Below, one piece after another: positions 3,831-12,901 of a stretch of 64,000 nucleotides of DNA; position 1 is the first letter of the stretch; every line of letters begins with the position of its first letter. Position numbers and translations under genes: made by a program. This DNA comes from the human T2T-CHM13v2.0 reference genome, Homo sapiens: NCBI RefSeq assembly GCF_009914755.1, contig NC_060942.1; one strand, written 5' to 3'. The notes under the pieces are model-generated. The model saw nothing but the letters and a program-made list of their open reading frames with translations, made no database searches and was not told the DNA's origin.

Positions 3831-4517
3831 TGAACCACAAAGGAAAATTTTAAAACAAGTTCATTTTGATACTGAATTAATCACGAGAGAAAATAATTAT
3901 TTTTTGTAGAAAGAAGAAAAGAAAAAACACCAAATACCAAAATATACTTAATTTATTGTTTCTTTAAGTCTTGCTCTGAATATATATTAATGTCATATGC
4001 AATTACTTAATGTACCATATGATACTATTTTTAATAAAAACTTCTATTTCTGGTTTTGTCTTTTAGAAAAAAAGGAATAGTTGAGTGAAAAAAAATAGCT
4101 AATTTTATTAACTGCATGTGTCTTCGGCTAAAATCTAGTTGTTTGAATCCCAGAGCTAAAAATCTCACAAAAGTCAAAACTACTACCAATAAAAATAGTG
4201 TAAATAGAAATATCACCATACCCTAAAGGCAGCGGGCATTAAGGCTGGAATTGTAAGTAACTCTATGTGAGTATGAATTCATTTCCCTTTTCCCCCTAGG
4301 TTGTTAAGTATTGGTATTACAAATAAGTAACGGCTCACAATTTTATGTATTTTTAAAAATTATGAGTTTTCAATATAAAGGTATTAAAAACATGCCAACC
4401 TTGATTAGTTGCAAAATAAACAAGTCATTAATGAAAAAAAATCTACTTAGTTATCTTCCTTCGCAAACCCTTAGGAACTTCTCAGACAGCGCTCCCACTT
4501 ATGGTAGAATCTTAAGG

Positions 4518-4668
4518 TATATATATCTATATCGATATATATCTATACGGACATATGTTTAGATATCTAATGTATATATCTAGATATCCATATAGATATA
4601 TGTTTAGATATCTAATGTATATATCTATATGTCAATATAGATAGATATATTAAATATAAATACATAGA
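4518..4668. repeat. AT-rich (TA/TAGA) low-complexity tract with an internal duplication
   Basis: atatgtttagatatctaatgtatatatcta occurs twice. Confidence 0.85.
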
Positions 4669-4672
4669 TCAA

Positions 4673-4973
4673 TTTTTTTTTAGATGCAGTCTCATTCTGT
4701 CATTTTGTCACCCAGGCTAGAGTGCAGTGGTGGAATCACAGCTCACCACAACTTTGACCTCCTGGACACAAGCAATCCTCCCACCTCAGCTTCCTGAGTA
4801 GCTGGAACCACAGATATACACCACCATGCCTGACTAATATTTGTATTTTTTTTTTGTAGAAATGAGGTCTCACTATGTTGCCCAAACTGGTCTCAAACTC
4901 CTGGCCTCAAGCAATCCTCCCATCTAGGCCTCCCAAAGTGCTAGAATTGCAGGCATGAGCCACCATGTCCAGC
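4673..4973 (-). mobile_element. AluJ
   Basis: Reverse Alu with J-type caagcaatcctcccacctcagc and cactatgttgcc. Confidence 0.9.
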
Positions 4974-5754
4974 GAAGATATTAACACCAAAACATGATGT
5001 TAACAAATGCTATTTGCCGTGCACAACGCAGTTGCTCATAGTTTAAATGTAATTTTTTTGTCCAAAGGAAAAAAAAACTTTTATCTGGGTTGTTCAAGAA
5101 CCCTTTCAAAATGTAAGAACATGCTTATGAAAACAAAGGGAAGTGGAAAAGCCGCAGCTGGCCATAAGCTCTAAGTCAAAGCTGTATTTGGGGTCTCAGT
5201 AAAGAGGAGATAAACCCAGTAAGTCTGGAACTTACTAACTGGCTACACAATTCAGATTAAAGAGAACTCAGAAATGATCATTACAGATTTACAAACCTAA
5301 GAGTATAAAGGATGGCAGTGCTTAAATCAGAGTAATATTTGGGGCAACAGTCTAAGTGGAAAATTTGGTTCAAATCGTGTTTTGTTTTTAGGGGGTCAGT
5401 AGATGCCAGGGAACAGCCATTCCATAGACAAGAAGTAGAGGCATCAGAAGAGGATGAGAGTCAGGATTAGAGAAGAATATTTACCTTTCATCATCAGGCC
5501 AGACTCCTAACAGTCTCCCAGGCACTATGAACCTATGACTACAGACTACAAAGCCCACAAAATACAAAAATCTCATCTTGCTTAAGGGCAGGAAACGTTG
5601 AAAGAAACCCAGGGAAAATAATTTCTTTCCATATTTCTTCTAAAGAATGCCTGCAATACGAGAAAAAAATATTCTCTTTCTCAGTGTAGCAAAATAGCCT
5701 ATGACCTTATAATGTGATTAAACTCTATTGGTGCTGTTAAGAAAGGGACACTTA

Positions 5755-5812
5755 ATTACATGGTGCTTTTCATCTTCTAAGTGCTTTACAAGAACTGTAT
5801 TAACTAATTAAC
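5755..5812 (-). mobile_element. Ancient MIR-class (MIR1_Amn-like) SINE fragment
   Basis: gtgcttttcatcttctaagtgctttacaa...attaactaattaa resembles the recalled amniote MIR consensus. Confidence 0.45.
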
Positions 5813-6747
5813 GACGGAAAACCTGATGTTTCTTGGAAAAGACCGCTATCTCTTCTCTTCACCTTTTAGATGAACTTTTTTTTAAATCTTGAAACACTAC
5901 ATGCACAAAACAAGTGATATTTAAACTTTTCAAACTAATGATTATGGCAAGCAGTTCATTTTCCTGGTACTTCCAGATTTGAACTGCAATTAAAAAGGAT
6001 GTAAGTAAGCCATCTAAAAAGAGAAACAGCTCTACTCTGGCTCATAAAAGCCCATCTGGTGAGAAACAGTGAACCTTGTAAATGATGAAGTAGCAATGAT
6101 GTGAAGATGCTCACTTTTGGCCTGTGGCTCCCACGTCCTCGAGAAGCAGATGGGATAAGGGCACCTATTCCCACCTGCACTGAGCTCTCTAACATGGGCT
6201 TCAGCTGAGATTTTCTCTTTCACTTCCAATAGTTTTAAAATTAGTGATCCCAAACATTCATCAAAGGAACATGGGTAATACGGTGTATTTTCTTTGAAGA
6301 TAAATGGTTTTGGCGCATGCCAAAGTTTCTTAAGAGCACATTTAAAAATCTGGATTGGGGTTATCATTCAGATATCATTCACTCATACAATTAAAGTGTA
6401 TTAAGAACCTAAAATGAACAAAGTACTCCTTGTTTAGAGTCAGGATGGGCATCTTTCTAACTACACCTCAAGAACTGGGTGGTTTTTATACCTGTATACT
6501 ATCTCATACCCACTCCATGAAAATTCTGTCTGCCAAGGCCAGGTTGAAATCCCAGTCTAGAGGGAGGTAGCATGAGATATGGAAAAATTTACAGCCTTGG
6601 GTTTAAAATGAGCTCTACATATGCACTTCCAGTGGCACAAATGTAATGTAAGAAAAATGCCTAGCCAATGGTATAGCGTATATAATATACAGAAGTTGGA
6701 CTCTGGATTAGCCTATTCTTGCATTGCTATAAAGAAATGCCTGAGAC

Positions 6748-6925
6748 AGAAGTCACAATCTTTTTTGTAACCTAATCTCAGAAGAGACATCCCATCACAT
6801 TTGCTGTACTCTACTCACTAGAAGCAAGTCACTAGATCCACCCCATACTCAAAGAGAGATTACAAAAGGACATGAAAACCTGGAGGCCAAGATCATTAGG
6901 GCGAGTCTAGAGACTGCCTACCTCA
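6748..6925 (-). mobile_element. MLT1 LTR fragment inside the retrocopy
   Basis: gacatcccatcacatttgc...tagaagcaagtcactag...ctgcctacctca. Confidence 0.75.
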
Positions 6926-6974
6926 ATGACAAACAATTATACAATGCTTTACTCCTGGAAAGATGCAGTTATTT

Positions 6975-7092
6975 CTTTCATCATTCATTGATCCAGCAGT
7001 ATTGATTGTGCACCTACTTAGTGCCATGCCCTGGAAATCTTGGGAGCAAAGCAGATGCTCTCCTGGTCTTCAGAAAACCTACAGTCTAGTGT
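6975..7092 (-). mobile_element. L2 3' fragment inside the retrocopy
   Basis: tcattcattg...ttgtgcacctacttagtgcca...tacagtctagtg. Confidence 0.6.
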
Positions 7093-7484
7093 CCTCAAAA
7101 CTAAACCCTTAAATGGTTTTGATCACAAAGAATAAAGTGTTTCAGATAGCAAGAAAACTTATTTCAGGAACTTTCTGTCTTATTAACTGCTTTTTCTTAA
7201 CTGCTGCTCTTGTAAATAAAATACTGATGACCTTTCAGTAAAGAAGAAAAATTACCTTAATCTTCCTACATCATAATTCTGTGATAACCCTTTGCTTGGA
7301 TCTACAGACTTTATAGCTCAGTGAGAGCCCAAGTGATTAACTTCAATTTCTGTACTGACAATATAGTGTAAGGCCTACAGATAAGAAGTTTGAGCTCACC
7401 CAGCTGTGGAAAGAGAAGCTGCTTATGAATTTAGCTCTTTGTCCCTCACAAGCCAAAAACTGACAGAAAAATTCATGAGGTCAC

Positions 7485-7850
7485 TGATATGGTTTGGCTG
7501 TGTCCCCATCCAAATCTCATCTTGAATTGTAGCTCCTATAATCCTCATATGTCATGGGAGGGATCCAGTGGGAGGTAACTGAATCATGGGGTTGGGTTTT
7601 TCCATGCTGTTCTCATGATAGTGAATAAGTCTCATGAGATCTGATGGTTTTATAAAGCACAGTTCCCCTGCACATGCTCTCTCTTGCCTGCCACCATGTA
7701 AGATGTGACTTTGCTCTTCCTTCGCCTTCTGCTGTAATTTTAAGGCTTCTCCAGCCACATGGAACTGTGAGCTCATTAAACCTCTTACCTTTATAAATTA
7801 CCCAGTCTCAGGTATGTCTTTATTAGCAGCATGAGAACAGACTAATTACA
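7485..7850 (+). mobile_element. THE1 (THE1C/D-like) LTR
   Basis: tgatatggtttggctgtgtcccca...cagcatgagaacagactaattaca. Confidence 0.95.
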
Positions 7851-8887
7851 GTAGATAACTGACAGAAAAATTTATGAGGTTGGTAAGGCCCCCTTCAGAT
7901 TCTATGGCCATGCTTTGTCTTCTAAAGAAAAACTTGAGAGGTTTCTAACAAGAATGAAAACCAAGATGATTCTAGTGATTTCAAAATAAACAAACACATG
8001 ATTTGTGAAAAAAAAAGAAAGGAAGAAATGCCTGAGACTAAGTAATTTATTTTTTAAAAGGAAAAAAGGGGTTTAATTGGCTCATGGTTCCCCAGACTGT
8101 ACAGGAAGAATGGCAGCATCTGCTTGGCTTTTGGGGGGCCTCAGGAAACTCATAATCATGGCAGAAGGCAAAGGGGGAAGCAAACACGTCTTACCTGGCC
8201 AGAGCTGGAGGAAGAGAGAAAGAGGGGAAAGGTACCACACACTTTTAAATAACCAGATCTCATGAGAACTCTATCATGAGAATAGCACCAAAGTAAGAAG
8301 CTGCTCCCATGCTCCAATCACCTCCCACTAAGCCCCACCTCCAACACTGAGGATTTCAACAGAACATGAGATTTGGGCAGTGATACAGATCCAAACCATA
8401 TCAGACTCAGATAGACCTGGTTATAAATCCCGATTGTAGCATTAGTGGGTAGAAGCCATATATTATACCTTCTTTACCTCTCACAGTATTGTTTAATAAA
8501 AATAATACAAGGCCATTGTTTTGGACTAAGCTTCTGCTATAGGCCTGAACAGACCAGACGAAAAATCAAAATGGCCGATGCCACTTTGCCTAAACTAAGA
8601 TTTGATGCCTAAACCAAACCTTAGCTTAGGTTTGGTGATGTGGAACAACTTTGTTTAGGTTTGGTGATATGGAGCTTTAGCATGGGTGATCCTTCCTGGA
8701 AATCAGGACGGAACAATAACAGTCAATTTCTCAAATAGGCCAGTTTAACTCTTCAATAAGAATGATAATAGAGTTCCCTCTACTTTAATCCTTAGACAAA
8801 AATGGTAGCATAAAGAACTGGATGTTAACTAATCAGTTATTTTTTTACTGTTCTGTCTAAAAGCAACTAATATACTCTTTGTTCTTT

Positions 8888-12901
<4,014 letters not shown>

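What the first reader, a model, noticed from the sequence alone, without database searches (positions are those of the whole stretch)
6732..8038. Orphan retrocopy of a non-coding RNA splitting an MST LTR
Seen: the MST LTR stops at ...ctataAAGAAATGCCTGAGAC (6747) and resumes at an identical 16-mer (8023-8038). The 1275 bp between end in AATAAA (7985-7990), 17 nt, then an A run (8008-8016). The insert has no L1/Alu body or ORF, only MLT1 and L2 debris, unique sequence and a THE1 LTR. Known: a long TSD, an A-rich cleavage site and a poly(A) tail are signatures of L1 ORF2p target-primed reverse transcription. Inference: a polyadenylated 3' UTR, lncRNA end or L1/SVA 3'-transduced flank from another locus was copied here after the MST inserted. 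Repeat annotation alone would show only unrelated fragments and miss it.
Basis: partly seen in the sequence, partly recalled or inferred. Interest (0 to 1): 0.8.

Follow-up and report, generated by a model that had tools for sequence, protein, structure and literature searches.

The report
Old retrocopy splitting an MST LTR
An ancient L1-made copy of the tail end of a non-coding chromosome 3 transcript sits inside an old retroviral LTR on chromosome 18; this is an ordinary kind of genomic fossil, though a later LTR landed inside it in an unusual way.

Summary
An exact 16-nt direct repeat (6732-6747 and 8023-8038) brackets a 1,275-nt insert. The insert splits a minus-strand MST-type solo LTR (6704-8403), which has its own 5-nt duplication, GACTC.

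Apart from a nested LTR, the insert is colinear with one other place in the genome: CHM13 chr3:156,080,785-156,081,631, minus strand, at 87% identity (K2P 0.124). Homology starts at 6748 and stops at 8007, 17 nt after an AATAAA present in both loci. The chr18 copy then carries a 15-nt A-rich tail that chr3 lacks.

This is an L1-type (target-primed) retrocopy of the last ~850 nt of a polyadenylated chr3 transcript, tens of millions of years old. I found no long ORF, no Pfam hit and no full-length L1 within 28 kb upstream of the parent. A non-coding intergenic transcript is the likeliest source, and orphan 3' transduction is unlikely.

The THE1-type LTR (7485-7850) is absent from the parent, so it arrived later. 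It also arrived abnormally:
- It has a 24-nt target duplication instead of 5 nt.
- It carries 3 and 6 extra bases at its two ends.
- The six extra bases resemble the spacer before the primer-binding site of full-length THE1.

Not checked: primate orthologues, and annotation or expression of the parent.

The parts
6699..6703 (.). Left copy of the 5-nt target duplication (GACTC) of the MST-type solo LTR
   Evidence: Read. The same 5 nt occur at 8404-8408, directly outside the two LTR ends.
6704..6747 (-). MST-type solo LTR, the piece left of the insert (the LTR's 3' end as read on the minus strand). It includes the left 16-nt duplication.
Evidence: Aligns to other genomic copies of the same LTR family, contiguous with the right piece in 6 of 9 loci.
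6732..6747 (.). Left copy of the 16-nt target-site duplication of the retrocopy
   Evidence: Exact repeat, (D4). It is single-copy in other MST-type LTRs.
6748..7481 (+). Retrocopy, 5' part. The first ~180 nt are an MLT1-like LTR fragment, followed by older repeat debris and unique sequence.
   Evidence: 87% identity over all 734 nt to G000:C3:156080897-156081627, minus strand. The many partial hits are confined to query positions 1-185, the MLT1-like part.
7458..7481 (.). Left copy of the 24-nt duplication flanking the nested THE1-type LTR
   Evidence: D1, 23 of 24 identical. This stretch is present once in the chr3 parent.
7482..7484 (.). Three extra bases (CAC) between the target and the LTR start
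   Evidence: Absent from the parent. They do not match the purine tract that precedes 3' LTRs in full-length THE1.
7485..7850 (+). Nested THE1-type LTR, complete from TG to CA, inserted after the retrocopy formed
   Evidence: 87-88% identity to the best of 7,398 first-look genomic candidates, with matches spanning window 7485 to 7846-7851. Absent from the chr3 parent.
7851..7856 (.). Six extra bases (GTAGAT) after the LTR's terminal CA
   Evidence: Absent from the parent. They match 5 of 6 positions of GTAAAT, the six bases between the LTR end and the TGG of the primer-binding-site-like stretch, found exactly in 21 of 30 THE1 LTR-internal junctions.
7857..8007 (+). Retrocopy, 3' part. Its first 24 nt are the right copy of the 24-nt duplication.
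   Evidence: 85% identity over 114 columns and 88% over 33 columns to the parent; 79% over 122 nt. Homology ends at 8007/8008.
7985..7990 (+). Polyadenylation signal AATAAA, 17 nt before the end of homology
   Evidence: Present in both copy and parent.
8008..8022 (+). Non-templated A-rich tail (nine A, then GAAAGG)
   Evidence: The parent has unrelated, T-rich sequence at this position.
8023..8038 (.). Right copy of the 16-nt target-site duplication
   Evidence: D4.
8039..8403 (-). MST-type solo LTR, the remainder
   Evidence: 76-83% identity to 39 other genomic copies scored from 7,678 first-look candidates.
8404..8408 (.). Right copy of the MST LTR's 5-nt target duplication (GACTC)
   Evidence: Read.

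Best explanation
The 1,275-nt insert is a processed, L1-mediated retrocopy made by target-primed reverse transcription. It copies the last ~850 nt of a polyadenylated, apparently non-coding RNA polymerase II transcript. That transcript came from the minus strand of CHM13 chr3:156,080,785-156,081,631, an intergenic place about 147 kb beyond an intronless Ras-family ORF (RAP2B by my recall).

Proposed sequence of events:
1. L1 endonuclease nicked an MST-type solo LTR on chr18 at an A-rich site.
2. The RNA's poly(A) tail primed reverse transcription.
3. The cDNA was joined at its 5' end, probably after 5' truncation.
4. Fill-in of the staggered cuts produced the 16-nt duplication.
5. Later, a THE1-type LTR entered the retrocopy by a non-canonical route.

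What is shown: the parent, the colinearity, the boundaries, the tail, the duplication and the order of nesting.

What is inferred: that L1 supplied the enzymes, that the parent RNA was non-coding, and the age. The age inference rests on K2P 0.124 (about 28-62 Myr, depending on rate) and on bracketing by MST and THE1 activity.
For: - One paralogue only. For the 734-nt 5' part, the hits were self plus chr3 at 87% over the full length; the other 38 scored hits cover only the MLT1-like first ~185 nt. For the 127-nt 3' part, there were 2 candidates, both scored: self and chr3.
- Homology begins at 6748, right after the left 16-mer, and ends at 8007, 17 nt after an AATAAA shared by both loci. The copy then has AAAAAAAAAGAAAGG where the parent has unrelated T-rich sequence.
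- The exact 16-nt duplication is single-copy in 6 of 9 other LTRs of the family.
- In the parent, the MLT1-like repeat runs on ~350 nt upstream of the copy's 5' end. So chr3 is the native context and chr18 the copy.
- The duplication starts with AAGAAA preceded by TATA, so the bottom strand reads TCTT/TA. This is close to the recalled L1 endonuclease preference TTTT/AA.
- No ORF exceeds 74 aa.
- Age: 95 differences in 837 aligned nt, K2P 0.124. MST and THE1 families were active from about 70 to about 45 Myr ago (PMC10735291, passages read).
Against: - No intron is missing from the copy, so RNA origin rests on the tail and the poly(A) site alone.
- The tail is short and impure.
- The endonuclease site departs from the recalled consensus at two positions (TCTT/TA against TTTT/AA).
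- I could not see any annotation, CAGE, poly(A)-site or RNA data for the chr3 locus, so the parent transcript is inferred only from its retrocopy.
- The 3' part is less similar (79-85%) and has a 9-nt indel.
- The genome search scores only the best first-look candidates, so a very diverged third copy could be missed.
Confidence: 0.9

Rival explanations
1. Orphan L1 3' transduction. A full-length L1 upstream of the chr3 segment read through its own poly(A) signal and used the downstream AATAAA. The cDNA was then 5'-truncated before reaching L1 sequence.
For: The anatomy (duplication, tail, no L1 body, unspliced genomic colinearity) is just what an orphan transduction leaves. An L1 fragment in the same minus orientation does lie upstream of the parent, at C3:156,094,845-156,096,889. 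Orphan transductions are an established class (search listing only; e.g. PMC7058536, PMC4862182, not read).
Against: That L1 fragment is 5'-truncated: it covers only positions 4290-6076 of the reference L1 at 76% identity. It ends 13 kb upstream of the copy's 5' end. No other L1 similarity lies in the 28 kb upstream. None of the 75 open frames of 70 aa or more in C3:156,070,001-156,100,000 hit any Pfam family, including reverse transcriptase. No sibling insertions carry the same tag; there are only 2 places in the genome. A source L1 that was polymorphic and never fixed would leave no trace, so this rival cannot be fully excluded.
Confidence: 0.08
2. Full-length retrocopy of an LTR-initiated transcript. 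The RNA started inside the MLT1-like LTR of the parent, so the copy's 5' end at 6748 marks an ancient transcription start and not a truncation point.
For: The copy begins about 350 nt into, and about 185 nt before the end of, a sense-oriented MLT1-like LTR in the parent. From recall, that is roughly where MaLR LTRs start transcription.
Against: No TATA-like motif sits at -24 to -31 in the parent; only GATAAG at about -17 to -22 (read). A 3-nt microhomology (AGA) at the 5' junction is typical of 5'-truncated joins. Random truncation is the common outcome.
Confidence: 0.15
3. A DNA-level event: a segmental copy or templated break-repair insertion from chr3, with the 16-mer arising by local duplication.
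For: No intron loss proves an RNA intermediate.
Against: The copied segment ends exactly at a canonical cleavage distance from a conserved AATAAA and is followed by a non-templated A tract. A DNA copy has no reason to end there.
Confidence: 0.02

Closest known systems
Processed pseudogenes and retrocopies made in trans by L1 ORF2p
   Same: A 16-nt target duplication, a 3' A tail at a real poly(A) site, an A-rich nick site, no promoter carried along, and a single parent locus elsewhere.
   Different: The parent is not a protein-coding mRNA, and no intron loss is visible. Retrocopy catalogues are built around coding genes (search listing; titles and abstracts only), so copies like this usually go unlabelled and appear only as unrelated repeat fragments.
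Orphan L1 3' transductions
   Same: Unique non-L1 sequence with tail and duplication, and no L1 body.
   Different: No competent source L1 lies upstream of the parent, and there are no sibling insertions.
Non-classical HERV-K insertions (PMC3625200; abstract and passages read)
   Same: For the nested THE1 LTR: an insertion without the classical short duplication, attributed to break repair.
   Different: The 4 of 29 HERV-K cases in that paper are truncated at both ends and delete target DNA. Here the LTR is complete, the target is duplicated by 24 nt, and extra bases sit at both joints.
Integrase-independent capture of retroviral or retrotransposon cDNA at chromosome breaks (recalled from work on integrase-defective retroviruses and yeast Ty1; no paper read here. 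PMC4516963 on capture of retrotransposon sequences at breaks in mouse zygotes was seen only as an abstract)
   Same: An unprocessed LTR end, filler bases, and absence of the integrase-sized duplication.
   Different: Here it is a fossil tens of millions of years old in a MaLR element, now a solo LTR. The mechanism is inferred from one locus.

Membership tests
L1-mediated (target-primed) retrocopy | Target-site duplication of roughly 7-20 nt flanking the insert | tested here: met
   Exact 16 nt at 6732-6747 and 8023-8038. Single-copy in 6 of 9 other LTRs of the family.
L1-mediated (target-primed) retrocopy | Non-templated poly(A) tail at the 3' end, at a genuine poly(A) site of the parent | tested here: met
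   AATAAA is shared by both loci. Homology ends 17 nt later. A 15-nt A-rich tail is present only in the copy.
L1-mediated (target-primed) retrocopy | A parent locus elsewhere, colinear with the insert and lacking duplication and tail | tested here: met
   chr3:156,080,785-156,081,631, minus strand, 87% identity.
L1-mediated (target-primed) retrocopy | Nick site resembling TTTT/AA on the bottom strand (consensus recalled) | tested here: inconclusive
   The site reads TCTT/TA. It departs from the consensus at one position before the nick and one after it.
L1-mediated (target-primed) retrocopy | Loss of introns relative to the parent | not testable with these tools
   The ~850 nt copied are colinear with the genome. 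No exon structure of the parent is known to me.
Orphan L1 3' transduction | Full-length L1 in the same orientation directly upstream of the transduced segment at the source | tested here: not met
   The only find is a 5'-truncated fragment (L1 positions 4290-6076, 76% identity) 13 kb upstream. No other L1 similarity lies in C3:156,060,001-156,110,000 in that orientation. 0 of 75 ORFs had Pfam hits.
Orphan L1 3' transduction | Sibling insertions sharing the same transduced tag | tested here: not met
   Only 2 places in the assembly: self and parent.
Canonical MaLR (THE1) integration, for the nested LTR | A 5-nt target duplication directly abutting TG...CA | tested here: not met
   There is a 24-nt duplication plus 3 and 6 extra bases. 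Among 11 other THE1-type loci, 5 show a 4-5 of 5 matching 5-nt repeat at the LTR ends, a sixth (L034) shows one, and none shows a long repeat. The script's 30-nt result for L034 was an artefact of an empty flank string.
Canonical MaLR integration, for the host MST-type LTR | A 5-nt target duplication | tested here: met
   GACTC at 6699-6703 and 8404-8408.

The most novel reading that the evidence does not exclude
The nested THE1-type LTR may be a fossil of integrase-independent insertion. In this reading, a linear MaLR cDNA whose U5 end was never processed was captured at a staggered chromosome break, and the element later collapsed to a solo LTR.

- The unprocessed U5 end still carries the six bases that lie between the LTR's CA and the primer-binding site.
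- The capture gave a 24-nt duplication and filler bases.
- The chr3 parent serves as a rare built-in empty site for an insertion this old.

If other MaLR LTRs with the retained spacer and long duplications exist, they would form an unrecognised class of ancient non-integrase ERV insertions.
Probability: 0.35. Interest if true: 0.5.

Novelty: new member of a known kind. Interest (0 to 1): 0.3.

Why it matters
For the retrocopy itself, the significance is modest. L1 is known to mobilise any polyadenylated RNA, and this is one more example. It does have three uses:
- It records that a now-unremarkable intergenic chr3 site produced a polyadenylated germline transcript tens of millions of years ago.
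- It shows that repeat annotation alone hides such copies.
- It gives a clean, datable three-layer nest: MST, then retrocopy, then THE1.

The nested THE1 LTR is the more instructive part. Because the parent preserves the pre-insertion sequence, its abnormal joints can be read exactly. That is seldom possible for LTR insertions this old.

Tried and rejected
- **Rfam:** a scan of 6000-9000 on both strands at E up to 1 gave 0 matches. The copied RNA is not a described structured RNA family.
- **CpG-island promoter:** a stretch 8 kb upstream of the parent is open in all six frames (L014:9266-10000, L015:95-553). I suspected a CpG island or gene. Composition shows a purine-rich simple tract (GC skew 0.64, AT skew 0.94), not a CpG island, and it has no Pfam hit.
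- **Donor locus for the THE1 LTR:** the 39 scored non-self hits are all 86-88% identical, and none stands out or clearly extends into the extra bases.
- **L1-endonuclease signature at the 24-nt duplication:** neither end resembles TTTT/AA (read).
- **Template switching during L1 reverse transcription** as the origin of the LTR plus 24-nt repeat. I rejected it as less likely because the insert is an exact TG...CA LTR, a DNA-stage structure that no single RNA carries.
- **Genome-wide class test:** the pattern CTAATACAGTAAATVH gave 145 hits against 41 for the reversed control. I sampled 20 (18 of the listed hits not ending in AT, 2 ending in AT).
  - 11 had no LTR similarity.
  - 4 continue into internal sequence with a mutated primer-binding site.
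  - 5 are followed by unrelated sequence. One of these (L082) is a 3' LTR preceded by the purine tract.
  - With thousands of such LTRs in the genome (7,398 first-look candidates; about ten thousand or more by my recall), a few chance occurrences of the hexamer are expected. No class is shown, and the other 125 hits were not examined.
- **First pairwise alignment:** the global MAFFT alignment across the LTR failed from 7475 onward. I replaced it with separate alignments.

Full report
**Observation**

- The 16-mer AAGAAATGCCTGAGAC lies at 6732-6747 and again at 8023-8038 (family D4). About 0.001 such exact pairs are expected by chance in 3 kb.
- AATAAA is at 7985-7990. Seventeen bases follow, then nine A (8008-8016). 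The whole A-rich tail is 8008-8022, AAAAAAAAAGAAAGG.

**The host element**

The flanks belong to one LTR on the minus strand, running from 6704 to 8403. It has its own 5-nt target duplication, GACTC, at 6699-6703 and 8404-8408.

A genome search with the right-hand piece found thousands of first-look candidates, and the 39 other copies scored were 76-83% identical. In 6 of 9 fetched copies, the left piece (ending at 6747) and the right piece (starting at 8023) map to adjoining sequence and overlap on a single copy of the 16 nt. In the remaining 3, the copies do not align at that end. So the 16-mer is a true target-site duplication inside a once-intact solo LTR.

**The parent**

Searching the window's own assembly with 6748-7481 gave self and one full-length match: G000:C3:156080897-156081627, minus strand, 87% over all 734 nt. 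The other 38 scored hits cover only the first ~185 nt, which is an MLT1-like repeat. The 3' part, 7881-8007, has exactly two places: self and the adjoining chr3 stretch 156080785-156080896.

BLAST of the whole region against the chr3 locus gave three colinear blocks:
- 6744-7481 at 87%
- 7860-7971 at 85%
- 7976-8008 at 88%

The first two blocks overlap on the chr3 side by 22 nt.

**The junctions**

- At the 5' side, homology starts at 6748. Upstream of that point the parent continues with its own MLT1-like LTR for about 350 nt, while the copy has MST sequence.
- At the 3' side, both loci carry AATAAA and stay alignable for 17 nt. The copy then has the A-rich tail, whereas the parent has unrelated T-rich sequence.
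- The chr3 locus shows no duplication and no tail.

This sets the direction of copying as chr3 to chr18. It shows that the copied molecule ended at a poly(A) site, so it was a polyadenylated RNA.

**Mechanism**

The hallmarks of L1 target-primed reverse transcription acting in trans (established knowledge) are a 16-nt duplication, a non-templated A tail at a genuine cleavage site, and a duplication that begins AAGAAA after TATA. On the bottom strand that reads TCTT/TA, against a recalled preference of TTTT/AA. All of these are read.

A 3-nt microhomology (AGA) at the 5' joint fits a 5'-truncated cDNA. No intron loss can be shown, because the copied ~850 nt are colinear with the genome.

**What the parent RNA was**

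- The insert has no ORF above 74 aa and no Rfam match.
- Around the parent, none of 75 open frames of 70 aa or more in 30 kb hit Pfam.
- I compared a full-length L1 taken from the same genome (L041) against 50 kb around the parent. In the transcript's orientation it found only a 5'-truncated, 76%-identical fragment (L1 positions 4290-6076), 13 kb upstream of the copy's 5' end.
- There are no sibling insertions.

An orphan 3' transduction is therefore unlikely, about 8%. It cannot be excluded, because a source L1 that was never fixed would leave no trace.

The nearest coding landmark I could place is an intronless Ras-family ORF at C3:155933275-155933757 on the plus strand, about 147 kb away. 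By recall this is RAP2B. The parent is on the other strand and far outside it.

I conclude that the source was a non-coding intergenic transcript or an unannotated transcript end. Whether it started inside the MLT1-like LTR, which would make the retrocopy full length, is open. I put that at about 15%, because no TATA-like motif sits at the usual distance.

**Age**

Parent and copy differ at 95 of 837 aligned positions (55 transitions, 40 transversions, 34 gap columns). K2P is 0.124, or 28-62 Myr for rates of 2.2 to 1.0 x 10^-9 per site per year.

The nesting order is MST, then retrocopy, then THE1. Published passages place the simian-specific MST and THE1 families (MSTB, MSTA, THE1A-D) within the last ~70 Myr, with MaLR activity until ~45 Myr ago (PMC10735291, passages read). 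If the nested LTR belongs to one of them, this brackets the event at roughly 45-70 Myr. That agrees with the slower rates.

**The nested LTR**

The THE1-type LTR (7485-7850, plus strand, complete from TG to CA) is absent from the parent, where the surrounding sequence is continuous.

In the copy it is flanked by a 24-nt direct repeat (7458-7481 and 7857-7880, 23 of 24 identical, D1). That stretch is single-copy in the parent. Three extra bases (CAC) sit at the left joint and six (GTAGAT) at the right joint.

Canonical insertions look different:
- Among 11 other THE1-type loci, 5 show 5-nt repeats matching at 4-5 of 5 positions directly at the LTR ends, and a sixth (L034) shows one.
- Two of the 11 are LTRs of fuller elements.
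- None has a long repeat.

At 30 THE1 LTR-internal junctions, the terminal CA is followed by GTAAAT (21 of 30 exact, the rest with 1-2 changes) and then TGG (27 of 30), the start of a primer-binding-site-like stretch. The window's six extra bases match that hexamer at 5 of 6 positions. Under uniform base frequencies the probability of this is about 0.005 (my own calculation, made after seeing the match). The three left-hand bases do not match the purine tract that precedes 3' LTRs.

My reading, at about 35%, is that linear MaLR cDNA with an unprocessed U5 end was captured at a staggered break without integrase and later reduced to a solo LTR.

An attempt to find more such cases was inconclusive. 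The pattern search gave 145 hits against 41 controls. Of the 20 I sampled, 5 LTRs carry the hexamer next to unrelated DNA, a number compatible with chance.

Non-classical ERV insertions are in print for HERV-K, but with truncation and target deletion, not duplication (PMC3625200, abstract and passages read).

**Verdict**

The retrocopy is a new example of a well-known process. The abnormal THE1 insertion inside it is a minor curiosity worth a genome-wide look.

Not done:
- primate orthologues, because none are held here
- annotation or expression of the chr3 parent
- formal repeat naming

I read no supplements, and no claim here depends on them.

Noticed in passing
window 7458-7880: The nested THE1-type LTR has a 24-nt target duplication, with 3 extra bases at one joint and 6 at the other, instead of the usual 5-nt duplication. 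The six bases resemble the spacer between the LTR end and the primer-binding site of full-length THE1. The chr3 parent serves as the empty site.
   Followed up: yes
L082 (G000:C2:14652947-14653427): A THE1-type 3' LTR, with the element's purine tract just upstream, whose terminal CA is followed by GTAAAT and then unrelated sequence. This may be another unprocessed U5 end, or chance.
   Followed up: partly
L084 and L088 (G000:C2:73060350-73060845; C2:129389112-129389592): Apparently solo THE1-type LTRs followed by GTAAAT and then unrelated DNA. No clear 5-nt duplication is in register. They were not analysed further.
   Followed up: no
L014:9266-10000 and L015:95-553 (G000:C3:156089266-156090553): A purine-rich low-complexity tract of about 1.3 kb, open in all six frames, 8 kb upstream of the parent (GC skew 0.64, AT skew 0.94 in its densest 500 nt). 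It is not a CpG island and has no Pfam hit.
   Followed up: partly
window 9258-10454: An old L1 3' fragment on the minus strand (about 71% identity to a young L1, positions 4842-6039), just downstream of the MST LTR. It is unrelated to the retrocopy.
   Followed up: no
L034 (G000:C17:46879151-46882516): A THE1-type LTR inserted into what looks by eye like an Alu-type repeat, with a perfect 5-nt duplication (GAGAC). A second, more diverged LTR lies about 1.1 kb away.
   Followed up: no
window 7966-7976: The copy has 9 nt more than the parent just upstream of the AATAAA. The extra bases look like a short tandem duplication of the neighbouring bases.
   Followed up: no
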